Shown here: piece after piece, positions 38,061 through 56,483 of the stretch
Numbering within the stretch: position 1 is the stretch's first letter
Layout of the letters: every line of letters starts with the position of its first letter
NCBI GenBank assembly: GCA_044222685.1
Contig: JBGAMU010000011.1
Coordinates: 4,582 to 68,581, forward strand
Source of the DNA: Burkholderiaceae bacterium
GTDB taxonomy: Bacteria > Pseudomonadota > Gammaproteobacteria > Burkholderiales > Burkholderiaceae_C
Direction of reading: 5' to 3'
Length of the DNA stretch: 64,000 nt
Position numbers and translations under genes: made by a program
The notes under the pieces: model-generated
Seen by the model: the letters and a program-made list of their open reading frames with translations, nothing else
What the model was told of the DNA's origin: nothing
Databases searched by the model: none

Positions 38061-38528
38061 ATGACATCGCGGTTTGGTGTGGCACTCGTCGCGCTGTCGT
38101 CGGCGATCTTCGTGACGCAGCTAGTCGGTTGCGCCACGGCTCCCGACTCCGCAGCGCTGCTGGCAGCGATTCAGGCCGAAAGGTCAGTGGTCGAGACGAA
38201 TTACGGTATCAGGGTCGAAGGGCTACGCCTCACCGCGGCCGGGTCGATGCTCGACTTTCGCTATCGGGTCCTCGATGCGCAGAAGGCTGCTCCATTCCTT
38301 AACGGCAAGATCCAGGCGTATCTGCTCGACGACGTGCGCAATGCGAAGCTCGGCGTGCCCAACACGCCCAAGCTCGGGCGCATCCGCCAGACCGCACGGA
38401 ACAACGTGATCCACGTCGACCGCAGCTACTTCATCATGTTCGGCAATCCGGGCAAGGCTCTGCAAAGCGGCGACAAGGTGGCCTTGCTGCTGGGCGAGGT
38501 CAAGATCACCGATCTGACGGTGGAGTAG
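38061..38528 (+). CDS. small lipoprotein of unknown function
   Basis: MTSRFGVALVALSSAIFVTQLVGC lipobox; 155 aa; no motif I recognise. Confidence 0.6.
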   Translation: MTSRFGVALVALSSAIFVTQLVGCATAPDSAALLAAIQAERSVVETNYGIRVEGLRLTAAGSMLDFRYRVLDAQKAAPFLNGKIQAYLLDDVRNAKLGVPNTPKLGRIRQTARNNVIHVDRSYFIMFGNPGKALQSGDKVALLLGEVKITDLTVE

Positions 38529-38592
38529 CGCCGCTGGGCCGAGCATGACGTCACGCCGCCGCAGACGTGAGCTCGGGCAAGATGTGGTCAAC

Positions 38593-40065: not shown

Positions 40066-40089
40066 AACCAGACATCCCGAGGTGCTCTG

Positions 40090-40713
40090 ATGAACGTACG
40101 TGCTGAATCCATGGGCCTTGCAGTGGCGCTCGCACTCGCGACAGGTGGCGCGCTGCTCAGCCCGTCCGTCGGTTCGGCGCACGAGGGCAAGCAACATGCA
40201 ACGCGGTGGCCCGGCTCCAACGACTACCTGCGCTCGGTACGTTCGTACGCGGTGCCGGATGTCGTGCTGACCGACGGCGACGCGCGCCAGGTGCGCCTGC
40301 GCGAACTGTTGGCGAGCAACGACCCGGTGATGATGAACTTCATCTTCACCACCTGCGGCACGATCTGCCCAGTGATGGTCAAGGTCTTCGCCGACGTGCC
40401 TGATCGGCTCGGTGCTCAGGCAAAGAACCTGCGCTTGATCTCGATCTCGATCGATCCCGACAACGACACACCGGCCCAGCTCAAGGCCTACGCCAGGAGC
40501 TTCGGCGCTGGTGAGCGGTGGAAGTTCCTGACCGGCAGCGCGCAGGACATCAAGAGCCTGCAACTCGCCTTCGATGGCTACCGTGGCGACAAGATGAACC
40601 ACGAGCCGCTCACGCTGATGCGTCATGCCGTGGGCAAACCCTGGATCCGTATCGACGGCTTCGCGAACCCCGACGAGCTGGTTCGCGAGTACCGCAAAGG
40701 GGGGCCGCAGTGA
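40090..40713 (+). CDS. SCO1/SenC-family copper chaperone
   Basis: Thioredoxin-like fold with FIFTTCGTICPVM (CxxxC) and a downstream His (KMNHEP). Confidence 0.85.
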   Translation: MNVRAESMGLAVALALATGGALLSPSVGSAHEGKQHATRWPGSNDYLRSVRSYAVPDVVLTDGDARQVRLRELLASNDPVMMNFIFTTCGTICPVMVKVFADVPDRLGAQAKNLRLISISIDPDNDTPAQLKAYARSFGAGERWKFLTGSAQDIKSLQLAFDGYRGDKMNHEPLTLMRHAVGKPWIRIDGFANPDELVREYRKGGPQ

Positions 40714-42377
40714 CGCTGCTCGGCGCGTCCGGTGTTTCCACCCTGCGGCGAGCGGCGTGGCTGCCTTCGGGGCTCGCCGTGCTAATGCATGTCTTCTTGG
40801 CGGTTGGTGCCTGGGCGCAGGCCGCTGCGCCCGAGGCAAGTGGCGATGCCGCGCAACTGGCGCTCGGCCAGCGCATCTATCGGGAGGGCATCGGTGCGTC
40901 TGGCCAAGCGCTGAGGGCGGTTGGCGCGGCGCAGGCGGCACTCGGTGGCAAGGACGCGGCCTGCGCCACCTGCCACCGCAGGAGCGGGTTTGGCTCCAGT
41001 GAGGGCAGGTTCGTCATCCGGCCGATCATCGCACCGGCATTGCTGCAGGAGCAGAGCGTCGCGCTGCACGCACCGCGCGTCAAGGCGCGAGTGGGGACGA
41101 GTCAACGCCCGGCCTACAACGAGGCCTTGCTGGCGCGCGCCATTCGAGGCGGCGTCGACGCCGCTGGCAAGCCGCTCGATGCCGTGATGCCGCGCTACGC
41201 GCTGAGCGACGACGAGATGAAAGCACTGTCGGCGTATCTGTTCTCGCTCGGCGCCAAACCATCGCCAGGCGTGGACGAGCACGACATCCACTTCGCCACC
41301 GTGATCCAACCCGGCGTCGCGCCGGAGCGGCGCCGTGCGATGCTCGACGTGATGCAGGCCTTCGTCAAGGACAAGGGTGCCAACGTGCGTTCGGACGAGC
41401 AACGCCGCGAGGCCGGCAACATGCGCATGTACCGCTCCTACCGCAAGTGGGTGCTGCATGTGTGGGAGTTGAATGGGCCGAGCGAAACCTGGTCAGCGCA
41501 ACTCGAGGCGTTGTACAGCCAGCAGCCAGTGTTCGCCTTCATTGGTGGCCTGGGCAACGCGAGCTGGGGCCCGATCCATGCCTTCAGCGAGCGCCTCGAG
41601 ATCCCGAGCGTGTTGCCGCAGGTGGATCTGCCGTTGCTGACCAGCATCAACCAATACACCTTCTACTTCTCGCGCGGCATGGTGCTCGAGGCGGAGGTGC
41701 TGGCCAAGTTCGTGCGTGAGCAGGGGGACGCGGGCCCGATCGTCCAGGTCTATCGCCGCGAAGAGGCGGGCGCGGCAGCGGCTGCGGCGTTCCGTGCCGC
41801 GCTGACGACTGGCGCGACGGTGGAGGACCGCGTGCTCGAAGGGCCGGCGACCGAGGCGTTCTGGCAACAGCTGTACGCCGGCAAGCCCGCCGCGGTGGTG
41901 CTGTGGCTCGGCGCATCGGATCTAGTGGGGGCACCTGCGCCGGGCGGCACTGCGCCCAGCGTGTACCTGTCCTCCAATCTGCTGCCGGGTCGGCTTCCCG
42001 ATGCGCTCGCCAAGGCCAATGCGCGACTCGTGTACCCGTCCGACCTTCCGCCCAAGCGCGAGGCGCGTCTGCTGCGCCACAAGCTGTGGCTGCACAACAA
42101 GGGCATTGCGGTCACCGACGAGGTGGTTCAGGTGAACACCCAGTTCACGATGACGGTGGTCAGCGATGTGGTGGGGCACATCATGGACAGCTTCTCGCGC
42201 GACTACTTCGTCGAGCGCATCGAGCATGTGGTCGGCCAGACACCGATGGCTTCGGTGTACCAGAACGTCAGCCTCGGTCCCGGCCAGCGTTTCGCGGCCA
42301 AGGGCAGCTCGGTGGTGCAGGTGCTCGACGCCGACAAGAAGCAGCTGAAGGCGCTGTCGGGCTGGATCGTGCCCTGA
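40710..42377 (+). CDS. monohaem cytochrome c domain fused to a type-1 periplasmic binding-protein-like domain
   Basis: The GTG start overlaps the SCO1 stop (GTGA). Signal/TM segment, then CATCH with a downstream Met (AVMPRY). The ~380 C-terminal residues look like a Leu/Ile/Val-binding-protein fold. Confidence 0.75.
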   Translation: MTLLGASGVSTLRRAAWLPSGLAVLMHVFLAVGAWAQAAAPEASGDAAQLALGQRIYREGIGASGQALRAVGAAQAALGGKDAACATCHRRSGFGSSEGRFVIRPIIAPALLQEQSVALHAPRVKARVGTSQRPAYNEALLARAIRGGVDAAGKPLDAVMPRYALSDDEMKALSAYLFSLGAKPSPGVDEHDIHFATVIQPGVAPERRRAMLDVMQAFVKDKGANVRSDEQRREAGNMRMYRSYRKWVLHVWELNGPSETWSAQLEALYSQQPVFAFIGGLGNASWGPIHAFSERLEIPSVLPQVDLPLLTSINQYTFYFSRGMVLEAEVLAKFVREQGDAGPIVQVYRREEAGAAAAAAFRAALTTGATVEDRVLEGPATEAFWQQLYAGKPAAVVLWLGASDLVGAPAPGGTAPSVYLSSNLLPGRLPDALAKANARLVYPSDLPPKREARLLRHKLWLHNKGIAVTDEVVQVNTQFTMTVVSDVVGHIMDSFSRDYFVERIEHVVGQTPMASVYQNVSLGPGQRFAAKGSSVVQVLDADKKQLKALSGWIVP

Positions 42378-42400: not shown

Positions 42401-43105
42401 TCAGGCCACGAGACCACCTTCCGCCGAGTCCTTCACCAGGCGGGCGAACGCGAACGGTCGCTCGATCAGGCCCAGCTCGAGTGCAATGAGCGTCAGCTCG
42501 GCGGCATTGCGCAGACCCAGCTTGTGCATCAGGTTGGCGCGGTGCTTCTCCACCGTCTTCGGGCTGACGCTCAGAAACTCGGCCGCGGTGCGATTGGTGC
42601 GGCCCTCGGCGATGAGCTGCAGAATGCTGCGCTCGCGATGGGTCAGCTTCTCCAGCGGGGACGATTTGGTGCCGTTGCTGCCCGGATGCAGAAAGCTCTG
42701 CACGACGTGGCGCGAGACGTCGGGACTGAGGTAGTTCTTGCCGCTGGCCACCGAGCGCATCGCCATCAGCAGCTCGTCGAACGACGCGTCCTTCAGCACA
42801 TAACCGTCGGCGCCGGCGCGCAGGGCCTCGCGCACGTAGTCTTCGGTCCGCAGTGTCGTCAGCATCACGACCTTCACCTGCGGCTGCCGACGCTTGATCT
42901 GCGACACGGTCTCCAGCCCACTGACGCCGGCCAGCACGATGTCCATCAGCACCACGTCGGGGTCGAGGTTGAGCGACGCCTGGACGGCCTCCTTGCCGTT
43001 GCTCGAGTGCGCGACCACCGCGAAATCGTCGTGCGCGGATATCAGCGCGCACAGGCCCAGGCGAAAGAGGTTGTTGTCGTCGACAAGCAGCACGCGGATG
43101 CTCAT
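42401..43105 (-). CDS. NarL/LuxR-family response regulator
   Basis: MSIRVLLVDDNNLFR..., VVLMDIVL, and a C-terminal HTH (LTHRERSILQLIAEGRTNRTAAEFLSVSPKTVEKHR). Its ATG overlaps the upstream stop (ATGA). Confidence 0.9.
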   Translation of the reverse strand: MSIRVLLVDDNNLFRLGLCALISAHDDFAVVAHSSNGKEAVQASLNLDPDVVLMDIVLAGVSGLETVSQIKRRQPQVKVVMLTTLRTEDYVREALRAGADGYVLKDASFDELLMAMRSVASGKNYLSPDVSRHVVQSFLHPGSNGTKSSPLEKLTHRERSILQLIAEGRTNRTAAEFLSVSPKTVEKHRANLMHKLGLRNAAELTLIALELGLIERPFAFARLVKDSAEGGLVA

Positions 43106-43692
43106 GATGGATTCCGGGAGACCGGCCTTGGCGGAGGGAAGGAGGGCACGTCGCCGTTGGCAGGCGTGCCGGGAAGAGCAGGGTTGGCGGTGAGTGGCCG
43201 ACCGGTGGACGAGATCGCGAACAACCATTCGCGATACGACTTGAGGCCTTCGAAGTGCTGGTATCCGGCGGCGAATCCGGCCTGCTTGACCGGCGCCTTC
43301 TCCGACAGGCTGTACACGCCGGCGACGCGGTCACCGATGCGCAACAGGCCCCATTCGTCACCGCCGGTCACCGGGTCGCGATAGGCGCGTCGCAGGTGGC
43401 GCACCGGCATCGGGTAGCGGTCGTCCTCGAGCAGATCCTCGATGCCGGTCGGCAACACCCGTGGCGTGCCCGGCGGCGCGCCGAAGTAGTAGCGCTGGAT
43501 GGCACGGCGGTACTGGTCGCCGACGAACAGCAGCTCCTGCTCCTGGCCGCGCTGGCGCGCCAGCGCCCACACGTCCACCGCCGCCATCAGCGCAATGCCA
43601 CCCAGCGTCAGTGCGACGAGCAGGGCGAGCAGGACGATCCCACCGGTTCTGCGGGTCCGCGGGCGGTGGGCGAGGGGCGCGCGTGCCGTCAT
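43102..43692 (-). CDS. T2SS minor pseudopilin-like protein (no Glu+5; GspK/J-like)
   Basis: N-terminal hydrophobic helix GGIVLLALLVALTLGGIALMA lacking the GFTLIE signature; sits in the operon after two pseudopilins. Confidence 0.6.
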   Translation of the reverse strand: MTARAPLAHRPRTRRTGGIVLLALLVALTLGGIALMAAVDVWALARQRGQEQELLFVGDQYRRAIQRYYFGAPPGTPRVLPTGIEDLLEDDRYPMPVRHLRRAYRDPVTGGDEWGLLRIGDRVAGVYSLSEKAPVKQAGFAAGYQHFEGLKSYREWLFAISSTGRPLTANPALPGTPANGDVPSFPPPRPVSRNPS

Positions 43693-44099
43693 TCGGTGCC
43701 CCTCACCGTGACGCCGGGATACGGCCGCGGGGCCGGTTGCACGTCATAGACGGCGCCCTGTGTCGGGTCCGGCGGCGCGACGACGACCCAGTTGGCTGCT
43801 TCGGTGACCGGGTCTACCGGCATCTGCCGCAGGTAGCGCTTGGCCACCAGCTCCTCGAGCGACTCCGGGTACTTGCCCTGGTCGCCATAGAACTTGTCGA
43901 TGGCATCGCGGATGGTGGCCACGTTCTGCCGCTGCACGCTGAAGCGTCCGTTGTCGACGGCGGTGAAGTAGCGCGGGATAGCCAGCGTCAGCAACAGCGC
44001 GATGAGGGAGAGCACCACCATCAGTTCGATCAGCGTGAAGCCCGCCGCCGCGCGCAGGCCCGGTCGCTGGTGGGGATGGCGGCCTGTGGTGTATCGCAT
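43689..44099 (-). CDS. GspG-like pseudopilin paralogue
   Basis: Prepilin cleavage/methylation motif AGFTLIELMVVLSLIALL, then GspG-like YGDQGKYPESLEELV...PVDP. Confidence 0.8.
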   Translation of the reverse strand: MRYTTGRHPHQRPGLRAAAGFTLIELMVVLSLIALLLTLAIPRYFTAVDNGRFSVQRQNVATIRDAIDKFYGDQGKYPESLEELVAKRYLRQMPVDPVTEAANWVVVAPPDPTQGAVYDVQPAPRPYPGVTVRGTE

Positions 44100-44104
44100 T
44101 TCCG

Positions 44105-44623
44105 CTACCAGGAGCTGTAGGGCGTGCCATCGAGCGCCACCCTGGATGACTTGGAGGACACGTCGAACACGTCAGCGCCGGCCGATGTGTCGCCCGGACG
44201 GCTGGCGTATGCACGAATGTCCCAGGTCTGCGCAGCGGGTACCTGCGCGTCGGCGAAGAATGGGTCTCTCGGCAGTTGACGCAGGATGACGATGCGTTGC
44301 GAGGCGTCGGTCTGGCCCAGGCCGAGGTCGCGTTTGTTGGCCATGTCGAGCACCTCGGTCAGCTTGTCCAGCGACGGCGGATAACCCGATTCGCCGGCGG
44401 CCTTGGCCAGCACACCGGAGTCGGTGGCTGCCTTGTAGGCATCCAGGCCGTTGCGAATCGTGCGCAACGCCTGGCGCAACTCGGCCTCCTTGAAGCGCGT
44501 GGTGGTGACTTCATAGAGCGGCAGCGCCACCATGGCGAGCAGACCTACGATCGCCAAGGTGATCAGCATTTCGACGAGCGTGAACCCGCGCGTCGCCGCT
44601 GTGGAGCGGGCCAGCATCCTCAC
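44105..44623 (-). CDS. GspG-like pseudopilin paralogue
   Basis: RGFTLVEMLITLAIVGLLA motif, plus GYPPSLDKL...LPRDPF. Confidence 0.8.
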   Translation of the reverse strand: MRMLARSTAATRGFTLVEMLITLAIVGLLAMVALPLYEVTTTRFKEAELRQALRTIRNGLDAYKAATDSGVLAKAAGESGYPPSLDKLTEVLDMANKRDLGLGQTDASQRIVILRQLPRDPFFADAQVPAAQTWDIRAYASRPGDTSAGADVFDVSSKSSRVALDGTPYSSW

Positions 44624-46662
44624 GGCTTGACCTTGGGTTCGCCGGCCGAAGGCGTCGGCTCCGTGGTGGCGGGAGCGCCGGGAATCGGGCTTTGGCCCGA
44701 CGATGCGGACCCAGCCGGATCGGCCGCAAGCGGCGCTCCGGCGCCGGCCGGCGTCGCTGCCGGCGCGGGCTGCGGCGATGGGGCCGCGCTGCCGCCACGA
44801 CCGGGCAGAGGTGCCCGGGTCGGGCCGGGCCGCGCACCGGTTGGCGGCGGGGCCGCGCCACCGGTGGACTGGCCCGTCGCCGCGCCGATCGGATCGAGCT
44901 GCAGTGCACGCTCGCGCATGCTGCTTTCGGTCCCGGAGAACACATTGCGTACCGACGCGTCGAGCGTGGCGGGCGGCCGCACGATGCGCGGCGTGATGGA
45001 CAGGACGATCTCCGACTTCTTGTCCGAGCCGCTGTTGTTGCCGAACAGCTTGCCTACGGTGGGCAGGTGGCCAAGGCCGGGCACCCTGGCCGACGTGTTC
45101 TTGTCGTCGGCCGAGATCAGGCCGCCCAGGATCTGCGTCTCGCCGTCGCGCAGACGCACCACGGTCTGCGCATTGCGTGTGCCGATCTGGTACGCGAGCG
45201 ACCCGTTCGGTCCCGGAATCTCCTTGACGATGCTGCTCACCTCCAGGCTGACGCGGATGCCGACCTCCTGGTCGGAGTAGACCTGCGGCTCGAACTCGAG
45301 CTTGAGGCCGACGTCCTGGTACTGCACCGAGCCGGTCACGACGCCGCTGCCGGTGTTGGTGGGCGTCACCGTGTTGGTGATGATCGGCACGCGGTCACCG
45401 ATCAGGATGCGTGCCTTCTCCTTGTTGCGGGCCCGGATGCGCGGGCTGGCCAGCAGCTTGGAGTCGGAGTCCTCCAGCCGCAGGTTGATGCCCAGACTGA
45501 GCTGGTTCACCAGCAGGTCGTTGCGGGTCAGCGCCTTCAGGCCGCCGATGGTGTTGGCGCTCTCGGGGGTGGAGATGCTGACTGCGTTGGGAATCTCGAC
45601 ACCCAGGTTGGACAGGCGGTCGTGCGACACCTCGAGCACCTCGACCTCGAGCATCACCTCTGCTTCGGGAACGTCGTGGGCGGCGATGACCTTGCTGGCC
45701 ACGGCGATCGCGTCGGCGGTGTCACGCATCACCAGCGTACCGCTGCGTTCGTCGACCGAGAGGTCCTTGATCTTCAGCACCGACTTCAGCACGGTCTGCA
45801 TGTACTTGACGTCGACGTTCGTCACCTGGAACGTGCGCACCTGCAGGTCCTGGTACTCCTTGAACTTGGCTGCGGTGGCCGGGTAGATGAACAAGGTGTT
45901 GGCGTTCAGCGCGCGCTTTTCCAGCTGGTTCTGCAGCAGGATCAGATCCACCGTGTCCTCGACGGCCGCGTCCTTCACGAAGATGGTCGTCTTCAGGTCG
46001 GCGCGCACGTCGCGATCGAGGATCACGTTCAACCCGGTGGTGCGCGACAACGCCTCGAACACCATGCGCAGGTTGGCGTCGCGAAACTGCAGCGTCACCG
46101 GCTTGTTCATGATCGACTGCGCCGCGGCCTGGGCGGCGCGGGTCTGGCGTGTCTTCTCGACGTGTTCGCGGATCGCGGCGTTCTGGCGTTGAGCCGCGGC
46201 GTTGGAGGGGTTGTCGGCCAGCACGGCGTCGACCCGCTCCTGGGCCGCGCTGACATTGCCTGCTCGCAGCTGCCTGTCCGCTTCGGCCAGCAGCTTGGCG
46301 CCGCGCGCGTCGAGCTCGATCATCTTCAGGCCGCGTCGTGCCCGGTCGTTGCTCACGTCGACCTGCAGTGCCTTGTTGAAGAGCGCGGCCGCTTCGGTGT
46401 CGTTGCCGCTGCGTCGAGCCGCCTCGGCCCGCTCCACCAGGTCGCGGCCGTGGGCCTGTGTGGCCTTGAGCAGATCGATGCGGTACTCGGCGTTGGTCGG
46501 CTCGAGCCGGCTGGCCTCCTGCAGCTTGGCCAGCGCCGCGTCGCGGTTGCCCTCCGCAAGCAGGCGCATGCCGTCGTTGTGAACCCGGCTGCCTGCGCAG
46601 CCCCACAGCAGCAGGGCCACGACCAACGGCAGCCGTCTGGCAGCGCCCTTGACGATGTTCAC
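44620..46662 (-). CDS. secretin (GspD/PilQ superfamily) with N-terminal TPR region and Pro/Ala-rich C-terminal tail
   Basis: Lipobox-like LLLWGCAG, TPR-like helices, N0/N1-like VTLQFRDANLRMVFEAL and a secretin core ...VPGLGHLPTVGKLFGN.... Confidence 0.9.
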   Translation of the reverse strand: MNIVKGAARRLPLVVALLLWGCAGSRVHNDGMRLLAEGNRDAALAKLQEASRLEPTNAEYRIDLLKATQAHGRDLVERAEAARRSGNDTEAAALFNKALQVDVSNDRARRGLKMIELDARGAKLLAEADRQLRAGNVSAAQERVDAVLADNPSNAAAQRQNAAIREHVEKTRQTRAAQAAAQSIMNKPVTLQFRDANLRMVFEALSRTTGLNVILDRDVRADLKTTIFVKDAAVEDTVDLILLQNQLEKRALNANTLFIYPATAAKFKEYQDLQVRTFQVTNVDVKYMQTVLKSVLKIKDLSVDERSGTLVMRDTADAIAVASKVIAAHDVPEAEVMLEVEVLEVSHDRLSNLGVEIPNAVSISTPESANTIGGLKALTRNDLLVNQLSLGINLRLEDSDSKLLASPRIRARNKEKARILIGDRVPIITNTVTPTNTGSGVVTGSVQYQDVGLKLEFEPQVYSDQEVGIRVSLEVSSIVKEIPGPNGSLAYQIGTRNAQTVVRLRDGETQILGGLISADDKNTSARVPGLGHLPTVGKLFGNNSGSDKKSEIVLSITPRIVRPPATLDASVRNVFSGTESSMRERALQLDPIGAATGQSTGGAAPPPTGARPGPTRAPLPGRGGSAAPSPQPAPAATPAGAGAPLAADPAGSASSGQSPIPGAPATTEPTPSAGEPKVKP

Positions 46663-47243
46663 TTGCTTCTCCCGGTGACGTTGAGCGTCTGCTGAACGTT
46701 GGTTGGCAGATAGGTCATTACCACCTCGTTGGCGTTGAGTGCGTCGACCCGGTAGGTGTTGTTGTCCAGCATGTCGCCGGCCGCGACGACCAGCAGCGCG
46801 TCGCCCTTGGCGAGAAACGCCTGCGGCTTGGCGGCGCCGCTTTCCAGCAGGCCGACGAAACTGAACGGCAGCGGTGGCGTGACCGGCTGGGGTTTGGGTG
46901 GCGGCGGTGGCGGCGGCGCAGGCGGCGGTGGGGCTGGAGGAGGCGGCAGCCAGCTCAGACTGGCGAACGGAGTGCCTTTGCTGCGCGGAATCGTCTTCGT
47001 GCGATCGACGGCGACGCCGGCGGCAGCTGCGTCCGCTGGCGGCACCGGCGCCGACGACGGCGTCGCGATGATCGAGGGTGCACTGGCCGGCCTGCTGCCG
47101 GGTGCCGACGGGCGCGCGACCTCCTCCACCACGTCGTCGCCGGCCGCGCGGTGGTTGCGCGACAACTGCGCGCTCACGTAGAACGTCGAGATGCCGGCGC
47201 AGGCGATGAACAGCAGACGAACGGGCTTGCTGGGTGTGGCCAT
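46659..47243 (-). CDS. GspC/PilP-like secretin-coupling protein with polyproline tract
   Basis: N-terminal TM, a PPPPAPPPPAPPPPPPPKPQP tract and a C-terminal beta-rich ~70 aa (PFSFVGLLESG...YRVDALNANEVVMTYL). Confidence 0.5.
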   Translation of the reverse strand: MATPSKPVRLLFIACAGISTFYVSAQLSRNHRAAGDDVVEEVARPSAPGSRPASAPSIIATPSSAPVPPADAAAAGVAVDRTKTIPRSKGTPFASLSWLPPPPAPPPPAPPPPPPPKPQPVTPPLPFSFVGLLESGAAKPQAFLAKGDALLVVAAGDMLDNNTYRVDALNANEVVMTYLPTNVQQTLNVTGRSK

Positions 47244-47244
47244 G

Positions 47245-47787
47245 TCACGGGCCCCGATACACGAACGTGAACCGAACCAGGGAGTCGAGTGCGCCGCTGC
47301 CGGAGTCAGTGCGCGACATGCGCAGTTCGTCGAGCGCCACGTGCGGCATCGCTTCCAGCACGTCGGCCGTGAAGGCCTTGAGCGCTGCGTACTCGTTGCG
47401 CACGGGGAAGGTGACGCTGTACGACACCAGCGACGTGTTGGGCTCCGCCTTCAGCTGGTAGTCGCCCTTGGCGAGCAGCACGTGGTGTCGTCCAGCGATG
47501 GTGAAGACCGCGGCCAGGTCGCTCGAGCACTGCGTCAGCGGCGGAAAGCGCGACATGAACTCGACCAGCTGTTCGCCGCTGGACGGGCGGCGGGCCGGCG
47601 GCCCTTGGCGTGCCAAGGCGCTGGCCTGTGCCGCCAGCGTCGCTTGCAGCGTCTCTGCCTGGCGACTGACCTGCGGCATCCAGGCGACGGTGAACGCTGC
47701 GAGTGCGAGCAGCAACAACGACAACAGGCCCGCGTAACCCAGGCGGCGCAACGCGAGCTGCCAGCCGATCAGCAGCAGCCGGTTCAT
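47245..47787 (-). CDS. GspM/PilO-like inner-membrane assembly protein
   Basis: MNRLLLIGWQLALRRLGYAGLLSLLLLALAAF TM followed by a coiled-coil-like segment. Call rests on position and size only. Confidence 0.5.
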   Translation of the reverse strand: MNRLLLIGWQLALRRLGYAGLLSLLLLALAAFTVAWMPQVSRQAETLQATLAAQASALARQGPPARRPSSGEQLVEFMSRFPPLTQCSSDLAAVFTIAGRHHVLLAKGDYQLKAEPNTSLVSYSVTFPVRNEYAALKAFTADVLEAMPHVALDELRMSRTDSGSGALDSLVRFTFVYRGP

Positions 47788-48326
47788 GGCGCCACCCCCC
47801 AGCCGGCCTGAACCTGGAAGCGGACCGGTGTGCCCGGTGTCTGCGCCTGCACCTGATGCGAGACCAGCACCACTTGCGACAGGCGTGGGTCCTTCTGCAG
47901 GGCGCTCAGGTACGCCAGCATCTCCTGCAGGTTGCGCGCCTCGGCGGTGAGCCGGATGCTCTTCTTGGCGACCGATGGCTCCACCGAGAGCAGCGCAACG
48001 GACTGGATCGGCGCCGACTCCAGCGTGTCCAGCAGGTCGGCCCATGGCGTGGTCAGGCCCTGCGACACCTTGCTGACCACCCTGGCGCGGGCGGCCTCGC
48101 CGGGCTCCAGTGGCCTTGCACGCGATGCACTGCTGGCGATCGACGTGCGCCGCGCCTCCAGCGCCGCCAGCCGCTCGGCCTGCTCGGCGGTGTCGGCCAC
48201 CATCAGCCCGAGCCGCACCGCGCCGGCGACGAAGAGCACGCCGCTCACCAGCAGCATGGCGGCGCCGCGCGGCGAGATGCGCCGCGTCTGCGGTGCGAAG
48301 TCCAGCTGCAGGCGGGCCGTCTTCAT
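47784..48326 (-). CDS. PilN/GspL(periplasmic)-like assembly protein
   Basis: MKTARLQLDFAP..., one TM (AAMLLVSGVLFVAGAV), a coiled coil and a ferredoxin-like C-terminus; 4-nt overlaps on both sides. Confidence 0.55.
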   Translation of the reverse strand: MKTARLQLDFAPQTRRISPRGAAMLLVSGVLFVAGAVRLGLMVADTAEQAERLAALEARRTSIASSASRARPLEPGEAARARVVSKVSQGLTTPWADLLDTLESAPIQSVALLSVEPSVAKKSIRLTAEARNLQEMLAYLSALQKDPRLSQVVLVSHQVQAQTPGTPVRFQVQAGWGVAP

Positions 48327-49183
48327 GGCGTCGGTGCCTCGCGATCGAACACGGTCCAGCGCGACGCCACGGCCTTGCCGGGCAGCTGCGGCGCCACCAA
48401 CACGTAGGCTGCCTGTTTGTCGACGTCGAGGCCGGCGGTGGCCAGCAGCCGGTCGACCCGCGTGTCCAGCAGCGCGGCGCTGGCCGTCGGCGCCAGCCCG
48501 AACCCGCACATCAGGCGCTGGGCGCGCTCGTTGTGCAGGCCGGGATCCGGCCGGTCCAGCCACGGGCCACTGCTGATCGCGGCAATGGCGCCGTTGAAGA
48601 CCTGCGCCACGACGGCCTCGCGCCCACTCGCCACGGCGAACACCGCCGAGCCGGGCTTCAGCGCCTGCGCATGACGATTCCACTGGACGCAGAAGTCGGG
48701 CTGCACGCGGCGCAGCGCGAGTCGATGGCGTGTCGCGAGTTCGATCAACGCCTGGATCTGTGCCTTGGACACCGCAGCGATCAGCAGGTGGCGACCGCCG
48801 CTCTGCAACTGCCAGCGCACCTCGTGCTGCGCGGCTGCGTCGCCCAGCAGTTCGAGCACGCAGGCAGACGCCACCGCCTGCAGCTGGCGGTCGCTGCTGG
48901 CGGCGAAGTCGCCTTCGACCACGTCGAGATGCAGAAACGCGTCGGCCAGCTCGACGTGAAGCCCGGCACCGGTCAGCGGCATGGTTCGGGCCAGCTCGCC
49001 GAGCACCGCGGCGATGGCGTCGCTCTGCTCGTCGAGAGACGGGCCGGCCGGCGCACCGTCGGCTTCGCCGGATTCGGCATCCCAGGTGCCGGTCGCGTGG
49101 GTCGCACTGGCCATCACCCTCGGCTGCAACCACCCGCACTCCAGCGTGCCGCACACCGAGCCGGGCACGATGCGCAGCCGCAC
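48323..49183 (-). CDS. GspL/PilM-like cytoplasmic assembly protein
   Basis: Call rests on position between gspE and the PilN-like gene. No TM seen. Start uncertain: GTG at 49183 or 49168, or ATG at 49114. Confidence 0.45.
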   Translation of the reverse strand: MRLRIVPGSVCGTLECGWLQPRVMASATHATGTWDAESGEADGAPAGPSLDEQSDAIAAVLGELARTMPLTGAGLHVELADAFLHLDVVEGDFAASSDRQLQAVASACVLELLGDAAAQHEVRWQLQSGGRHLLIAAVSKAQIQALIELATRHRLALRRVQPDFCVQWNRHAQALKPGSAVFAVASGREAVVAQVFNGAIAAISSGPWLDRPDPGLHNERAQRLMCGFGLAPTASAALLDTRVDRLLATAGLDVDKQAAYVLVAPQLPGKAVASRWTVFDREAPTP

Positions 49184-49187
49184 CAGG

Positions 49188-50923
<1,736 letters not shown>

Positions 50924-50927
<4 letters not shown>

Positions 50928-52135
50928 TGGAGGCTGGAGGCGAGATCGAAGATCGGCAGGTACATCAGCACGACGATGGCGCCGATGACCAGACCGATCA
51001 CCACCATCAGCACGGGCTCGAACAGGCGGCTGGTCAGCTCGACCGAGCGCTGCAGACGCGCCTCATGGAAGGCGGCGATGCGCTCGAGGATTTCCGCCAT
51101 TGCACCAGTGCGTTCGGCGACGGCCAGCATGCTCGTCGCCACGGGGTCGGCCAGGCGCGCCTGCTGCAGCGCGTCGCTGATGCTGCGACCCTGCTGGATC
51201 AGCATGACGGCTCGCTCGAGCCGCCCCCGGTCGTCGCTGCCGAGCAGATTGGCGCCGAGCTGCAGTGCCCGCGGCGCGGCAATACCACCCTTGATGAGCA
51301 TGCCCGTCGTGCGGTACAGCTGCGCGTGGCGGAACAGCCGGATCGTCGATCCGATCAACGGCACCGCCTCGATCCAGCGCGCGCGGGCGCCGTTGCGCAG
51401 CACCTGGCGCAGGCTCACGAAGCCCGCCGCCAGCGCCAGCACGACGCCGCCGCCGACGGCTCCCGCGTGTCCGGCGACCAGGCGTCCCCACGTCATCAGC
51501 ACCTGCGACGACCACGGCAGTTCGCGCCGCGTGCTCTCGATGAGCACGGCGAACTTCGGCACCACGAAGCCGAGCAGGAAGACGACCACCAGGCTGCCGA
51601 CCGCCAGCAGCAGCATCGGGTAGACCGCCGCGCCGACCACCTTGTCGCGCAGCGCCTTGATGCTCAGCTGATGCTGGGCGTAGCGCACGAGTGCCGTGCT
51701 GAGATCACCCGTCTGCTCGCTGGCACTGACGGTGGCAATCAGCAGCGGTGGAAACTGATGCGGTTGACGTCCGAATGAGGCCGACAGCGGCAGCCCCTCC
51801 GAGACGCCCCTGACCACGTCGAGCAGCACGGCTCGTCGGGCCGCCACCGTCTCGTTGTTGGCCAGCGTCCGCAAGGCGTCGACGACGGACAGGCCCGCCG
51901 CCAGCAGCGACGCCAGTTCATGCGAGAACGTGGCGATGTCCAAGCCGCCGCGCGGCGAGCCGAGCCAGCGCGTCCTCGAGATAGGCTCCCGCCCGCCACG
52001 CATCGAACAGTCGAGAACCTGAAATCCGCTCTGCGTGGCCCTGGCGCGGGCGGTGAGGGCATCGGGCGCGTCGATGCGCAGGCTTTGCACGGAGCCGCCC
52101 GGCGTGCGCACGACCAGATCGAAGGGGTTTGCCAT
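50924..52135 (-). CDS. gspF: type II secretion platform protein GspF
   Basis: 403 aa with a duplicated GspF/PilC domain and three TM segments; 4-nt overlap with gspE. Confidence 0.95.
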
Positions 52136-52147
52136 CGCGTCGTTGGC

Positions 52148-52573
52148 TCAGGAGCCCCAGGAGGTCACGTCGGTCGCCTCGCCGCTGCCGCCGACCTGTC
52201 GATCGGAGCCGAAGGACGACAGGTCGTAGTCGCCGTGGTCGCCCGGCGACTTGTAGATGTAGCGCACACCCCAGGGATCAGGCGGCACCGCCTTCTTGAG
52301 GTACGGGCCGGCCCATTTGTCGACGTTCTGCGGCCGTGTGTTCAGCGCCTCGAGGCCTTGCTCGCTGGTCGGGTAACTGCCCACGTCGAGCCGGTACTGG
52401 TCGAGCGCCTTCTCGAGCGAGTCGATCTGTGCCCGGGCGATCTTGGTGTTGGACTTGCCCACCTGGTCGAAGAACCGTGGGCCCACCAGGCCGGCAAGCA
52501 GCCCGATGATGACCACCACCACCAGCAGTTCGAGCAATGTGAAGCCGCGGCCGCGGCCGATGCCCTCAGCCAC
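52148..52573 (-). CDS. gspG: major pseudopilin GspG
   Basis: GRGFTLLELLVVVVIIGLLAGLV..., ARAQIDSLEKALDQYRLDVGSYPTSEQGLEAL and DPWGVRYIYKSPGDHGDYDLSSFGSDRQVGG. I chose the GTG at 52573 because the ATG at 52672 would give a 44-aa leader. Confidence 0.9.
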   Translation of the reverse strand: MAEGIGRGRGFTLLELLVVVVIIGLLAGLVGPRFFDQVGKSNTKIARAQIDSLEKALDQYRLDVGSYPTSEQGLEALNTRPQNVDKWAGPYLKKAVPPDPWGVRYIYKSPGDHGDYDLSSFGSDRQVGGSGEATDVTSWGS

Positions 52574-52697
52574 CGGCGTCGGCCGAATGCATCGAAGTGA
52601 AGACCGGGTCGTCACAGCTGAGTGCTCCGTCGTTCGATGCCGGTCCCGGGCAGCGAAATGCGCCCTCGTCATCTGACGAACACTGTTGTTCGACGGT

Positions 52698-52714
52698 CTT
52701 AAAGTCGACTTAAG
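52698..52714. promoter_or_regulatory. near-palindrome CTTAAAGTCGACTTAAG upstream of gspG
   Basis: Read directly in the SLT-gspG intergenic region. It shares the CTTAAG-type half-site with the 23993 palindrome. Confidence 0.25.
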
Positions 52715-52794
52715 TCAGGTAGGGTCACCCCCCCGGATAGGCGGGCGGGTCTGCAGGGATGCGTACCTGCCGCGGCTCGACGCGGCCGTTCGCG

Positions 52795-53439
52795 CTAGAG
52801 CGCGTCCGCGTGCCTGAAGCGTGCCTGAAGCGAGAGCACCTTGGGCACGTAGGCCCGTGTCTCGGCGATGTCGGGGATGCGCCGCCCGGCGCGCATCACC
52901 GCGCCTTCACCCGCGTTGTAGGCCGCCAGCGCGAGCGACACGTCGCCGGCAAAGTAGTCCAGCAGCCAGCGCAGGTAGGCCGTGCCGCCGCGCACGTTGT
53001 CGGCGACGGCATAGGCATCACGCACGTTGAAGCGACGCGCCGTGTCGGGCATCAACTGCATCAACCCCATCGCCCCCTTGCGCGAGCGTGCATGGGGATC
53101 GAAGTTGGATTCGACTGCGATCAAGGCCTTCAGCAGCGCGGCCTCGACAGCGTACTCGCGTGCCACCTCGCCGATCAGGCCGTGCAGTCCCGCGGGAAGG
53201 GGTCGAAGCGCGAACGGGGCGCGTCGCGGTGCGTTCAACGCCGCGTCCGCCTCGGCAGGAGTCGCACCGCCTCGGGCACGCTCGTCGGGAATCAACACCG
53301 TTGGCGTCTGCGCCGATGCGAAGTTGGACAGCACGACGGCGCCGCCCGACTCGACGCCAGGGCCTACGTAGATTTGGGCCTGCGCCGCACCGACGACCAG
53401 GCAGCCGGTGACAAGCTTCGACAGGAACGCGTGCTTCAT
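52795..53439 (-). CDS. lytic transglycosylase (SLT domain), secreted
   Basis: Signal peptide MKHAFLSKLVTGCLVVGAAQA. LIAVESNFDPHARSRKGAMGLMQLMP and AYNAGEGAV. Confidence 0.85.
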   Translation of the reverse strand: MKHAFLSKLVTGCLVVGAAQAQIYVGPGVESGGAVVLSNFASAQTPTVLIPDERARGGATPAEADAALNAPRRAPFALRPLPAGLHGLIGEVAREYAVEAALLKALIAVESNFDPHARSRKGAMGLMQLMPDTARRFNVRDAYAVADNVRGGTAYLRWLLDYFAGDVSLALAAYNAGEGAVMRAGRRIPDIAETRAYVPKVLSLQARFRHADAL

Positions 53440-56482: not shown

Positions 56483-56483
56483 C

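What the first reader, a model, noticed from the sequence alone, without database searches (positions are those of the whole stretch)
42401..53439. Atypical T2SS: inverted G-F-E order, PilMNOP-like core, TPR-secretin and GspG-only pseudopilins
Transcription order is: SLT transglycosylase, GspG, GspF, GspE, four small assembly proteins, secretin, two further GspG-like pseudopilins, one Glu-less pseudopilin-like protein, and a LuxR regulator. A canonical GspC-M operon has H, I, J and K tip pseudopilins and a different order. None of those four is recognisable here, and no prepilin peptidase is present. As I recall, multiple GspG (XcpT)-type paralogues are also a feature of the P. putida Xcm cluster needed for Mn-oxidase export. 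Geobacter uses an atypical T2SS (Oxp) for a multicopper protein. The cluster ends 23 nt from the end of the oxidase operon, which makes the oxidase proteins, the giant protein and possibly the 27-haem cytochrome its likely cargo.
Basis: partly seen in the sequence, partly recalled or inferred. Interest (0 to 1): 0.7.

Follow-up and report, generated by a model that had tools for sequence, protein, structure and literature searches.

The report
Xcm-type secretion machine beside copper oxidases
This 13-gene cluster is a real but non-standard protein-export machine of the little-studied "Xcm" type, first linked to manganese-oxidase export in Pseudomonas putida, and here, as in several other bacteria, it sits next to a copper-oxidase operon that is its most likely cargo.

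Summary
On the minus strand, 42401-53439 holds SLT, GspG, GspF-like, GspE/PilB-like, four small assembly genes, a lipidated TPR-secretin, two Glu5 pseudopilins, one Glu-less pseudopilin-like protein and a LuxR-type response regulator. From GspG to LuxR the genes overlap or lie at most 12 nt apart. The cluster ends 23 nt from a convergent multicopper-oxidase (MCO) operon.

Only GspG passes a curated T2SS model. E, F and D fall below both the T2SS and the type IVa pilus cut-offs. The four small proteins are PilM/cyto-GspL-like (by predicted fold), PilN (Pfam), PilO-like and PilP-like (both weak).

The module is widespread in Beta- and Gammaproteobacteria. The P. putida copy is followed by CsgEFG homologues and preceded by the last two genes of the mnxG Mn-oxidase operon. 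This fits the xcm cluster of de Vrind 2003 as I recall its abstract. Ralstonia megaplasmids carry the same module, probably their "unorthodox T2SS".

MCO operons lie beside this module in three different arrangements: convergent here, co-directional in Cupriavidus metallidurans CH34, and upstream in Pseudomonas. Many lineages have no MCO nearby.

Verdict: a new member of a known but poorly characterised kind. MCO cargo is plausible but unproven. Interest is moderate.

The parts
52795..53439 (-). Lytic transglycosylase (SLT) with a signal peptide. It is likely the peptidoglycan-clearing accessory of the machine.
   Evidence: Pfam SLT E 1e-28. The ATG at 53439 gives MKHAFLSKLVTGCLVVGAAQAQ. SLT homologues lie next to the module in several related loci. 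About 120 nt separate it from the longest GspG reading frame (more from the likelier internal starts), so it may be a separate transcript.
52148..52672 (-). Major pseudopilin GspG (Xcm T1-type). The maximal ORF is given; the real start is probably the GTG at 52615 or 52573. The prepilin site is G|FTLLE.
   Evidence: TIGR01710 170.4 bits against a cut-off of 88.85; Pfam T2SSG E 1.5e-40. N-terminal motif; sequence.
50924..52135 (-). Inner-membrane platform protein, GspF/PilC family.
   Evidence: Pfam T2SSF, two domains, E 8e-47. TIGR02120 GspF 226 bits (cut-off 424), HofC 209, PilC 161; all below cut-off.
49188..50927 (-). Assembly ATPase, about equally distant from GspE and PilB, with a PilB-like N-terminal region and a tetra-Cys motif.
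   Evidence: GspE model 472 bits (cut-off 630); PilB model 471 bits (cut-off 676). PDB: PilB 5zfr aligns over residues 35-577, whereas EpsE/GspE align only from residue 186. It is 57.6% identical to the Ralstonia module ATPase and 41-44% to annotated GspE, the latter over the C-terminal two thirds to three quarters (query residues 144 or 187 to 576).
48323..49207 (-). "M": soluble actin-like protein with a PilM/cyto-GspL fold. It is encoded separately from the membrane partner. Its start overlaps the ATPase stop by 20 nt.
   Evidence: No Pfam, NCBIfam or PDB sequence hit. AlphaFold2 model pLDDT 88.8. Foldseek: PilM 5eoy E 1.4e-11; cyto-EpsL 1yf5 E 1.7e-11, TM 0.59; GspL 4pht TM 0.58-0.60. The start was inferred from conserved VS..W starts in relatives and from the 294-aa gene call in L001.
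47784..48320 (-). "N": PilN-family bitopic protein. It has a conserved cytoplasmic N-terminal L-x-L-D/E-F motif followed by a TM helix.
   Evidence: Pfam PilN E 0.0068 for this protein alone; 19 of 21 family members hit PilN, best E 1.3e-7. N-termini.
47245..47787 (-). "O": PilO/GspM-like bitopic protein.
   Evidence: The family profile A5 has M. xanthus PilO (3jc8_O) as best PDB hit, E 0.0037, over residues 26-158. This is weak, but it is the component expected at this position.
46659..47243 (-). "P": PilP-like protein with an N-terminal TM or signal anchor, a Pro-rich linker and a C-terminal beta domain.
   Evidence: The family profile A6 has Neisseria PilP (2ivw, 4av2_M) as best PDB hits, E 0.003. 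This is weak, but it is the component expected at this position.
44620..46662 (-). Outer-membrane secretin with a lipobox (LLLWGC), an N-terminal TPR domain, N0 (STN), a single N1 domain, the secretin core and a Pro/Ala-rich tail. It is probably self-piloting.
   Evidence: Pfam Secretin E 1e-39, Secretin_N, STN and TPR_14 above their gathering cut-offs; other TPR models hit below cut-off. GspD model 157 bits (cut-off 351), PilQ 152 (cut-off 284), MshL 96 (cut-off 250). The best extended match to a natural protein for the TPR part is TadD/PA4299, the partner of secretin RcpA (8odn_B, E 0.0012). The P. putida orthologue has the same architecture. The closest 120 homologues, about half with TPR Pfam hits, come from Burkholderiales and unassigned metagenomes.
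44105..44623 (-). Pseudopilin 2 (Xcm T2-type), G|FTLVE, with a GspG-like head.
   Evidence: N_methyl motif. The family profile A9 aligns to GspG 5wda over residues 11-116, E 5e-7. No GspH/I/J/K hit.
43689..44099 (-). Pseudopilin 3 (Xcm T3-type), G|FTLIE, with a GspG-like head.
   Evidence: TIGR01710 51.7 bits, partial and below cut-off. The profile A10 hits GspG 5wda at E 9e-11 and head-only GspG constructs (2kep at E 0.0015). No GspH/I/J/K hit.
43102..43692 (-). "X": Glu-less pseudopilin-like protein (XcmX-type). It is the signature subunit of the family and is proposed to act as the tip or cap.
   Evidence: No Pfam or NCBIfam model matches. Family size: 3704 representatives at E<=0.001. Gly at -1 is near-invariant (244 of 245 non-gap sequences) and +5 is Ala or Gly in most sequences and never Glu in 270 sequences. 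AlphaFold2 pLDDT 82, showing a long N-terminal helix plus a small sheet. The best fold hit is PulG 1t92, but it is not significant (E 1.3). It is 46-49% identical to the P. putida-group counterpart.
42401..43105 (-). NarL/LuxR-type response regulator. It is the last gene of the operon and its start overlaps the stop of X by 4 nt.
   Evidence: Response_reg E 1.5e-25 and GerE E 7e-17. A homologue is present in 30 of 63 related loci, directly after X in those whose hit order was listed and upstream of the module in Cupriavidus and Paraburkholderia.
26375..42377 (+). Convergent putative cargo and maturation operon:
- giant DUF11 protein, 26375-33163
- cupredoxin proteins MCO1 33213-34520, MCO2 34517-35986 and MCO3 36010-38001
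- lipoprotein, 37998-38528
- S8 protease, 38545-40065
- SCO1 copper chaperone, 40090-40713
- cytochrome c fused to a periplasmic-binding-protein domain, about 40710-42377
   Evidence: Pfam hits. Sec-type signal peptides. Copper-site motifs. The operon is conserved next to the module in L006, L009, L010, L013, L016, L017, L019, L021 and L073, and is co-directional in C. metallidurans CH34 (L085). The SCO1 and cyt c-binding-protein genes are homologous to genes of the P. putida mnxG operon.

Best explanation
This is an Xcm-type machine of the type IV filament superfamily. It is a two-step protein-secretion system that sits between a classical T2SS and a type IVa pilus system.

Shown from sequence:
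- Twelve structural and regulatory genes are packed as one operon, with an SLT gene upstream.
- Three prepilin-type subunits have Glu5 and one conserved subunit lacks it.
- The M, N, O and P genes are split in the PilM/N/O/P manner.
- The secretin is lipidated and carries a TPR domain.
- Every protein of the neighbouring MCO operon whose N-terminus was examined begins with a signal-peptide-like hydrophobic stretch.
- The same module recurs next to MCO operons in other bacteria.

Inferred mechanism:
1. A prepilin peptidase encoded elsewhere cleaves G1, G2 and G3, and perhaps X.
2. The PilB/GspE-like ATPase, docked on the actin-like M protein and the GspF platform, polymerises GspG into a short periplasmic pseudopilus.
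3. That pseudopilus is primed by a tip made of G2, G3 and the Glu-less X, which would play the role of GspK.
4. M binds the conserved cytoplasmic N-terminus of N. N-O-P connect the inner-membrane platform to the N0 domain of the secretin.
5. The secretin reaches the outer membrane by its own lipid anchor and pilotin-like TPR domain.
6. SLT opens the peptidoglycan.

The most likely cargo is the set of folded periplasmic proteins encoded by the convergent operon. These are the cupredoxin proteins MCO1, MCO2 and MCO3 and the giant DUF11 protein. They would be loaded with copper by SCO1 and perhaps trimmed by the S8 protease. Export would place a metal or phenol oxidase on the cell surface, as proposed for the Mn oxidase of P. 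putida GB-1.
For: Family identity:
- The order G1-F-E-M-N-O-P-D-G2-G3-X is conserved in dozens of species of Comamonadaceae and other Burkholderiales MAGs, Oxalobacteraceae, Cupriavidus, Paraburkholderia, Ralstonia, Thiobacillaceae, Nitrosospira and Methylophilaceae.
- P. putida-group loci have E-M-N-O-P-D-G2-G3-X. In P. putida 31303 this is followed by CsgE/F/G homologues; the group's loci have no G-F pair within 10 kb upstream of X. This matches the published description of xcm as I recall it.
- The ATPase is 57.6% identical to the Ralstonia module ATPase and 41-44% to annotated GspE.

Component typing:
- GspG passes its equivalog model.
- The M fold matches PilM and cyto-GspL.
- N matches PilN in 19 of 21 homologues.
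- O matches PilO and P matches PilP, each as the top PDB hit.
- The G2 and G3 heads match only GspG.
- X is Glu-less across the family.

Cargo link:
- MCO operon homologues are convergent after LuxR in at least 9 loci where the X protein is only 46-67% identical to the window's.
- They are co-directional directly after X in C. metallidurans CH34.
- In 9 of 10 Pseudomonas loci a homologue of the cyt c-binding-protein gene lies directly upstream of E. In P. putida 31303 it is followed by a SurA-like gene, the same domain pair as the last two genes of the mnxG operon listed for GB-1 (PMC11409713 Table 4).
- SCO1 or cyt c-binding-protein homologues occur in 19 of 63 informative loci.

Genetics in the literature: a Gsp-related pathway and the ccm genes are needed for Mn oxidation in P. 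putida (PMC3056050; PMC4509608).
Against: - No experiment bears on this locus.
- Most loci with the module have no MCO gene within 10-14 kb. This includes the Ralstonia, Paraburkholderia, Collimonas, Thiobacillus and Nitrosospira loci examined. The machine is therefore not exclusively an MCO exporter, and the adjacency could partly reflect shared ancestry among related Burkholderiales.
- The MCOs here are two-domain-type proteins, unlike MnxG, which the literature describes as a large MCO. No sequence comparison with MnxG was possible.
- The O, P and X assignments rest on weak hits (E about 0.003, and E 1.3 for the X fold).
- The de Vrind 2003 paper could not be read here. Its gene list is from my memory of the abstract.
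- PilB-like and PilMNOP-like features would also fit a fibre-forming system.
Confidence: 0.65

Rival explanations
1. It is the same Xcm-type secretion machine, but it is general-purpose. Its substrates are encoded elsewhere, and the MCO operon is only a neighbour, co-inherited or co-regulated, for example by copper.
For: Only 12 of 63 informative loci have MCO homologues nearby. The Ralstonia and Paraburkholderia copies and the sampled Collimonas, Thiobacillus and Nitrosospira loci have unrelated neighbours. T2SS substrates are usually not encoded beside the machine (general knowledge).
Against: The linkage recurs in three different gene arrangements, in lineages as far apart as Pseudomonas, Cupriavidus, Herbaspirillum and the Comamonadaceae/Burkholderiales MAGs. 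Rearrangement with retained proximity argues for a functional tie. P. putida genetics link this system to Mn-oxidase export (literature).
Confidence: 0.2
2. It is a fibre-forming system. It would build a surface pseudopilus or type IV-like pilus for adhesion, for scaffolding the oxidase or mineral, or for electron transfer, rather than secreting proteins.
For: The N-terminal region of the ATPase aligns with PilB and not with GspE N1E. The M-N-O-P genes are split as in T4aP. The secretin is short, with N0 and one N1 domain. In P. putida the module is adjacent to curli-type CsgEFG genes.
Against: The major subunit passes the GspG equivalog model and is not a PilA-type pilin. No PilT-type retraction ATPase was seen among the genes annotated in the window. 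All four subunits have small GspG-like heads. The published phenotype of xcm mutants is a transport defect (literature, from memory).
Confidence: 0.1
3. It is an ordinary T2SS (Gsp) or an ordinary type IVa pilus cluster that has merely diverged in sequence.
For: Generic Pfam families T2SSE, T2SSF, T2SSG and Secretin all match.
Against: E, F and D fall well below the GspE/F/D and the PilB/C/Q equivalog cut-offs. There are no GspC, H, I, J, K, L or M matches. The gene order and the extra X family are conserved as a distinct module across classes. Identity to annotated GspE is 41-44%, against 57.6% within the module family.
Confidence: 0.03

Closest known systems
Xcm system of Pseudomonas putida GB-1/KT2440 (de Vrind et al. 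2003, Mol Microbiol 47:993; cited in PMC4509608 and PMC3056050)
   Same: - Homologous XcmX-type Glu-less subunit, 46-49% identical.
- Two pseudopilin genes directly upstream of X.
- Homologous ATPase, about 55% identical.
- M-N-O-P genes in the same order.
- Secretin with the same TPR, STN, Secretin_N and Secretin architecture.
- No GspC/L/M or H-K.
- No prepilin peptidase seen in the cluster.
- Adjacent to an MCO operon with SCO1 and cyt c-binding-protein genes.
   Different: - Here G1 and F are contiguous with the rest. In P. putida no G-F pair lies within 10 kb upstream of X, which fits my recollection that xcmT1-xcmS is a separate two-gene operon.
- There are no CsgE/F/G homologues here.
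- A LuxR-type regulator and an SLT gene are attached here.
- The neighbouring oxidase is a set of three small cupredoxin proteins plus a giant DUF11 protein, not MnxG.
- The MCO operon is convergent here rather than upstream.
"Unorthodox" T2SS clusters of the Ralstonia solanacearum species complex megaplasmid (PMC6428702, citing Li et al. 2016)
   Same: The core order G1-F-E-(M)-N-(O,P)-D-G2-G3-X is the same on a R. pseudosolanacearum megaplasmid. The X family is present on 110 Ralstonia megaplasmid records.
   Different: No MCO operon lies within 14 kb in the copy examined. The equation with the "unorthodox T2SS" of the paper is my inference, because the paper gives no coordinates that I compared.
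Classical T2SS (Gsp/Xcp/Eps/Pul)
   Same: GspG-type major pseudopilin; GspE/F/D-family ATPase, platform and secretin; presumed two-step export of folded periplasmic proteins.
   Different: - The order is G-F-E instead of C-D-E-F-G-...-M.
- There are no GspH/I/J/K. Instead there are two GspG-like subunits plus the Glu-less X.
- GspL is replaced by separate PilM-like and PilN-like proteins.
- GspM and GspC are replaced by PilO-like and PilP-like proteins.
- The secretin has only N0 and one N1 domain, plus a lipidated TPR domain.
- E, F and D fall below the curated GspE/F/D cut-offs.
Type IVa pilus PilMNOPQ/PilBC machinery
   Same: A split M-N-O-P alignment subcomplex upstream of the secretin; an ATPase with a PilB-like N-terminal region; a short N0-N1 secretin. 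A TPR lipoprotein pilotin (PilF/PilW/Tgl, from general knowledge) is paralleled here by a TPR domain fused to the secretin.
   Different: The major subunit is GspG-type. There is no PilT/PilU. The secretin has no AMIN domains. PilB, PilC and PilQ models score below their cut-offs.
Geobacter Pul/Oxp atypical T2SS that secretes the multicopper protein OmpB (Mehta et al. 2006; described in PMC3543383)
   Same: It is an atypical T2SS with three pseudopilins (PulG, OxpG, TklG) that is needed for export of a multicopper oxidase.
   Different: Homology to the present module was not tested. One deltaproteobacterial MAG (L068) does carry an X-family module.

Membership tests
Xcm-type system (P. putida xcm; Ralstonia 'unorthodox' T2SS) | XcmX-type pseudopilin-like subunit with a prepilin-like Gly but no Glu5 | tested here: met
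   Window 43102-43692 has G|IVLLA. It is 46-49% identical to the protein at the equivalent position in P. putida-group loci. The family never has Glu at +5 in 270 sequences.
Xcm-type system (P. putida xcm; Ralstonia 'unorthodox' T2SS) | Two XcpT/GspG-like pseudopilin genes immediately upstream of X | tested here: met
   G2 and G3 are at 44105-44623 and 43689-44099. They are homologous and syntenic with the two genes upstream of X in L076.
Xcm-type system (P. putida xcm; Ralstonia 'unorthodox' T2SS) | XcpR (ATPase) and XcpQ (secretin) homologues are present, while XcpP/Y/Z (GspC/L/M) are absent | tested here: met
   E and D are present. No GspC/L/M model matches. PilM/N/O/P-like genes are found instead, in the same order as in P. 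putida.
Xcm-type system (P. putida xcm; Ralstonia 'unorthodox' T2SS) | Separate xcmT1-xcmS (G-F) operon and csmEFG genes downstream of xcmX, as in P. putida | tested here: not met
   Here G1-F are contiguous with E, and no CsgE/F/G homologues follow X. The contiguous layout is the common one in Betaproteobacteria. These look like Pseudomonas-specific traits rather than features that define the family.
Xcm-type system (P. putida xcm; Ralstonia 'unorthodox' T2SS) | Required for export of a metal-oxidising multicopper enzyme | not testable with these tools
   Only genomic linkage to MCO operons could be shown.
Classical T2SS (Gsp) | GspG major pseudopilin | tested here: met
   TIGR01710 170.4 bits against a cut-off of 88.85.
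Classical T2SS (Gsp) | GspE, GspF and GspD at equivalog level | tested here: not met
   GspE 472 bits against 630; GspF 226 against 424; GspD 157 against 351.
Classical T2SS (Gsp) | Minor pseudopilins GspH, I, J and K | tested here: not met
   The only matches are to the N-terminal helix, for example gspH at 34 bits (cut-off 80) and gspJ at 18 bits. The G2 and G3 profiles hit GspG only. X is 196 aa and its predicted fold is a single long helix plus a small sheet, without the large inserted domain that I recall from GspK.
Classical T2SS (Gsp) | GspC, GspL (fused cytoplasmic and periplasmic domains) and GspM | tested here: not met
   No model matches. The cyto-GspL/PilM-like fold lies on a soluble 294-aa protein that is separate from the PilN-like membrane protein.
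Type IVa pilus system | PilB, PilC and PilQ at equivalog/subfamily level | tested here: not met
   PilB 471 bits against 676; PilC 161 against 700; PilQ 152 against 284.
Type IVa pilus system | PilM-PilN-PilO-PilP alignment subcomplex encoded upstream of the secretin | tested here: inconclusive
   The M fold matches PilM, but matches cyto-GspL equally well. N matches PilN in 19 of 21 homologues, but this protein scores 16.9 bits against a gathering score of 22.8. O and P have only weak top hits to PilO and PilP, E about 0.003.
Type IVa pilus system | PilA-type major pilin and PilT retraction ATPase | tested here: not met
   The major subunit is GspG-type. No PilT-like gene was found among the window genes that were annotated.
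MSHA pilus system | MshL-type secretin | tested here: not met
   TIGR02519 MshL 95.9 bits against a cut-off of 250.

The most novel reading that the evidence does not exclude
Xcm-type modules form a distinct and widespread branch of the type IV filament superfamily, intermediate between type IVa pili and the T2SS. Their features would be a split PilM/PilN pair, a secretin fused to its pilotin, and a tip built from GspG-like subunits capped by a Glu-less subunit. In this reading the branch is specialised for placing copper-dependent metal oxidases and very large surface proteins on the cell surface. In this lineage, cargo would be marked by the roughly 200-residue C-terminal domain shared by the giant protein and MCO3.
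Probability: 0.2. Interest if true: 0.7.

Novelty: new member of a known kind. Interest (0 to 1): 0.45.

Why it matters
How bacteria move large, copper-loaded metal oxidases across the outer membrane is still unclear. In P. putida the only clue is that a poorly described "Xcm" pathway is needed.

This locus and its relatives give that pathway a defined 11-gene core, with an added regulator and SLT gene in this lineage. The parts are specific: a PilMNOP-like core, a lipidated TPR-secretin, and three Glu5 pseudopilins (one bona fide GspG and two with GspG-like heads) plus one Glu-less pseudopilin-like subunit.

The module is widespread, with thousands of sequence clusters of the signature subunit. 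It is repeatedly found beside MCO operons, including next to genes matching the end of the mnxG operon and in the genetically tractable C. metallidurans CH34.

That makes the cargo question directly testable. It also points to a family that current curated models (NCBIfam, Pfam) leave mostly as "hypothetical protein" or as generic "GspE/PulE family".

Tried and rejected
- An exact-sequence look-up of the secretin found no contig. The look-up through a 92%-identical X homologue worked.
A narrower one (A2) worked.
- A paper search for "xcmX" inside words returned only noise. The de Vrind 2003 paper is not in the library, so its content is from memory plus citing papers.
- The sequence profile of the M protein found nothing in PDB or Pfam. 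Only the predicted structure typed it.
- The fold search with the X model gave no significant match (best PulG, E 1.3). X is therefore called pilin-like from its N-terminus and its helix-plus-sheet model only.
- The PilN-like profile against PDB gave only a spurious NapD hit.
- Canonical T2SS, T4aP and MSHA membership were considered and rejected on the curated cut-offs.
- I looked for a common alternative cargo next to modules that lack MCOs and found only unrelated genes: an ABC transporter, DnaK, a solute-binding protein and an alginate-export porin.
- I searched the window for further copies of the C-terminal domain shared by the giant protein and MCO3. There are only those two.
HMM scores, PDB scores and identity bands were used instead.

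Full report
**1. What is in the window**

The window is about 67% G+C throughout. The interval 42401-53439 carries, all on the minus strand:

| Gene | Coordinates | Key evidence |
|---|---|---|
| SLT lytic transglycosylase | 52795-53439 | Pfam SLT |
| GspG | 52148-52672 | Passes the curated model: TIGR01710 170 bits, cut-off 88.85 |
| GspF/PilC-family platform | 50924-52135 | Pfam T2SSF |
| GspE/PilB-family ATPase | 49188-50927 | Pfam T2SSE |
| M, N, O, P (four small genes) | 48323-49207, 47784-48320, 47245-47787, 46659-47243 | See section 2 |
| Secretin | 44620-46662 | Lipobox, TPR repeats, STN/N0, one Secretin_N domain, Secretin core |
| Pseudopilins G2, G3 | 44105-44623, 43689-44099 | G\|FTL[VI]E N-termini |
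| X, pseudopilin-like | 43102-43692 | G\|IVLLA, no Glu5 |
| Response regulator | 42401-43105 | Receiver and GerE domains |

From GspG to the regulator, neighbouring genes overlap by 4-20 nt or are at most 12 nt apart, so the twelve genes look like one operon. SLT lies about 120 nt or more upstream.

The convergent plus-strand operon ends at 42377, which is 23 nt from the regulator's stop codon. No prepilin-peptidase motif occurs in any frame of the window. Only these three canonical prepilin N-termini are present.

**2. Typing the parts**

Curated models:
- The ATPase scores 472 bits on the GspE model and 471 on the PilB model. Both are well below the cut-offs of 630 and 676.
- The platform scores 226 on GspF (cut-off 424).
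- The secretin scores 157 on GspD (cut-off 351), 152 on PilQ (284) and 96 on MshL (250).

Solved structures:
- PilB aligns to the ATPase over residues 35-577, whereas GspE/EpsE align only from residue 186. The N-terminal region is therefore PilB-like and not the GspL-binding N1E domain.
- In annotated plasmid and chromid records the ATPase is 57.6% identical to the ATPase of the same module in Ralstonia. It is only 41-44% identical to proteins annotated GspE, and only over the C-terminal two thirds to three quarters.

The four small proteins:
- None of the four small proteins reaches a curated Pfam or NCBIfam cut-off; only N has a sub-threshold PilN match.
- Using homologues from related loci, N is PilN: 19 of 21 family members hit Pfam PilN, best E 1.3e-7.
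- The O profile's best PDB hit is PilO (E 0.0037).
- The P profile's best PDB hits are PilP (E 0.003).
- The M profile hits nothing. Its AlphaFold2 model (pLDDT 88.8) matches P. aeruginosa PilM (E 1.4e-11) and the cytoplasmic domains of EpsL/GspL (E 1.7e-11, TM up to 0.60).
- M is soluble and is encoded separately from N. The cytoplasmic N-terminus of N carries a conserved L-x-L-D/E-F motif.
- The core is thus organised like PilM-N-O-P and not like GspL-M-C.

The pseudopilins:
- Outside the N-terminal helix, the G2 and G3 profiles match only GspG.
- The X model (pLDDT 82) is a long helix plus a small sheet. PulG is its best, non-significant, fold match.
- No GspH, I, J or K is detectable.

The secretin's TPR domain has, as its best extended match to a natural protein, TadD, the TPR lipoprotein partner of the Tad secretin RcpA (E 0.0012). 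Together with the lipobox, this suggests a pilotin fused to its secretin. That is an inference from weak evidence.

**3. What family it is**

The Glu-less protein has no Pfam or NCBIfam model, but it belongs to a large family. An exhaustive search found 3704 representative clusters at E<=0.001. In 270 members the Gly at -1 is near-invariant (244 of 245 non-gap sequences) and position +5 is Ala or Gly in most and never Glu.

Scanning one genome per species with this family returned 80 loci. Mapping the window's proteins onto them shows the order G1-F-E-M-N-O-P-D-G2-G3-X in:
- Comamonadaceae and other Burkholderiales MAGs;
- Collimonas, Herbaspirillum and Glaciimonas;
- Thiobacillaceae and Hydrogenophilales;
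- Nitrosospira and Methylophilaceae.

The same order occurs in Cupriavidus metallidurans CH34, Paraburkholderia and a Ralstonia pseudosolanacearum megaplasmid taken from the plasmid collection.

In ten Pseudomonas species of the putida group the locus is E-M-N-O-P-D-G2-G3-X, with no G-F pair within 10 kb upstream of X. In P. putida 31303:
- the secretin has the same TPR-STN-Secretin_N-Secretin architecture;
- X is followed by CsgE, CsgF and CsgG homologues.

This is what I recall from the abstract of de Vrind et al. 2003. There, xcmT1-xcmS form a separate two-gene operon; xcmX is clustered with xcmT2, xcmT3 and csmE/F/G; KT2440 and R. solanacearum have comparable clusters with xcpR and xcpQ but no xcpP/Y/Z. 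That paper is cited for the Xcm cluster in PMC4509608 and for Mn oxidation in PMC3056050. I could not read the paper itself.

The Ralstonia literature speaks of two "unorthodox" T2SS with seven core genes (PMC6428702). The X family occurs on 110 Ralstonia megaplasmid records. I infer that these are the same family.

**4. The cargo question**

The convergent operon encodes:
- a 2262-residue DUF11 protein;
- three cupredoxin proteins;
- a small lipoprotein;
- an S8 protease;
- an SCO1 copper chaperone;
- a cytochrome c fused to a periplasmic-binding-protein domain.

Every operon protein whose N-terminus was examined begins with a signal-peptide-like hydrophobic stretch, as expected for two-step export.

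Homologues of this operon lie next to the module in three arrangements:
- They lie convergent after the LuxR gene in at least nine loci where the X protein is only 46-67% identical to the window's (L006, L009, L010, L013, L016, L017, L019, L021, L073).
- In C. metallidurans CH34 the MCO1-MCO2-MCO3-giant genes follow X directly on the same strand.
- In 9 of 10 Pseudomonas loci a homologue of the cyt c-binding-protein gene sits immediately upstream of the ATPase. In P. putida 31303 it is followed by a SurA-like gene. PMC11409713 (Table 4) lists a gene pair with these annotations as the last two genes of the GB-1 mnxG operon (mnxG, YVTN protein, SCO1, SCO1, cyt c/binding protein, SurA). The Pseudomonas loci end at this point, so mnxG itself was not seen.

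Proximity that is retained through rearrangement, across two proteobacterial classes, is good comparative evidence for a functional link.

The link is not universal. Of 63 loci with at least 6 kb downstream of X, 12 have MCO homologues and 19 have SCO1 or cyt c-binding-protein homologues. The Ralstonia, Paraburkholderia, Collimonas, Thiobacillus and Nitrosospira loci examined show unrelated neighbours.

I therefore rate "Xcm-type machine" as very likely. I rate "exports the neighbouring MCO proteins and giant protein" as somewhat better than even. Nothing ties the multihaem cytochromes to the system.

**5. Comparison with known systems, and novelty**

- The machine works like a T2SS, with a GspG pseudopilus, an ATPase, a platform and a secretin.
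- It fails the membership tests for the classical Gsp system, for T4aP and for MSHA.
- It meets the tests for the Xcm family.
- It differs from the P. putida prototype in several ways. G and F are contiguous with the rest. A LuxR regulator and an SLT gene are attached. The csm genes are absent. The adjacent oxidase is different.
- The Geobacter Pul/Oxp system also has three pseudopilins and exports a multicopper protein (PMC3543383). Homology to it was not tested.

The finding is a new member of a known but barely characterised kind. What may be new is the explicit parts list and the recurrent MCO linkage. In the citing papers I read and in the one annotated GenBank record examined, the small genes appear only as hypotheticals.

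**6. Verdict**

Interest is 0.45.

Noticed in passing
window 33213-34520, 34517-35986, 36010-38001: The three cupredoxin proteins look like a split multicopper oxidase.
- MCO1 carries HTVHFHG and HCHQEATEHMQMGM, which are type 1 plus type 3 ligands.
- MCO2 carries HPFHHHG and HMWHSH and has no HCH-type (type 1 copper) motif.
- MCO3 has no copper motifs.

MCO1's closest solved relatives are two-domain MCOs (3g5w, 3gdc, 2zwn) and Cu nitrite reductases, whose copper sites lie at subunit interfaces. A heteromeric MCO1-MCO2 enzyme is possible.
   Followed up: partly
window 32564-33163 and 37402-38001: The giant DUF11 protein and MCO3 share a C-terminal domain of about 200 residues (32% identity, E 2e-8) that ends in D-x-F-x-G-G-T-[VL]-P. 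It matched no Pfam or NCBIfam family at E<=0.001. Only these two copies occur in the window. It could be an anchoring domain or a sorting domain.
   Followed up: partly
window 15505-23849 (minus strand): A possible porin-cytochrome module lies here:
- a 914-aa protein with TPR and SPOR hits and an outer-membrane-type C-terminus (...GARYEF);
- an 881-aa ORF with 27 CxxCH motifs (18332-20977);
- a 733-aa ORF with 24 CxxCH motifs and MtrC/cytochrome c7 hits (20830-23031);
- a 361-aa ORF with a C-terminal hydrophobic segment.

Together they suggest extracellular electron transfer.
   Followed up: partly
window 8393-15542 (minus strand): Genes of a cytochrome c maturation (ccm) cluster lie close by: CcmH/I, CcmF and a CcmC-like gene were typed. 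In P. putida, ccm mutants lose Mn(II) oxidation (PMC3056050). This window therefore holds all three gene classes known genetically for that trait: ccm, an Xcm-type system and an MCO.
   Followed up: no
window 53644-57020: Just upstream of the cluster are an OmpR-type response regulator (53644-54354, plus strand), a sensor kinase with a 2CSK_N domain (55145-56482, minus strand) and a second SCO1 gene (56484-57020, minus strand). This resembles copper-sensing CopRS/CusRS systems, as I recall them, and could control the oxidase and secretion genes.
   Followed up: no
L085 14680-28403 (Cupriavidus metallidurans CH34 megaplasmid NC_007974.2, record 1332868-1361278): In this well-studied metal-resistant strain, homologues of MCO1, MCO2, MCO3, the giant protein, the small lipoprotein and the cyt c-binding protein follow the Xcm-type module on the same strand. 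The plasmid-collection record carries no annotation for this stretch.
   Followed up: partly
proteins P0040, P0098, P0118: Some close homologues of the TPR-secretin are 820-940 residues long and carry a cohesin domain (PF00963). This hints at a protein-docking function on the secretin in some species.
   Followed up: no
L035, L040, L043, L048, L059, L067, L069, L070, L075, L083: X-family genes also occur without any detectable module partner within 10 kb. Some genomes have two or three X copies (Paraburkholderia). Orphan or diverged contexts therefore exist.
   Followed up: no
window 44620-44920 (secretin residues about 580-680): The secretin ends in a low-complexity tail of about 100 residues rich in Pro, Ala and Gly. 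Classical GspD has an S-domain at this position. The function of the tail is unknown.
   Followed up: no
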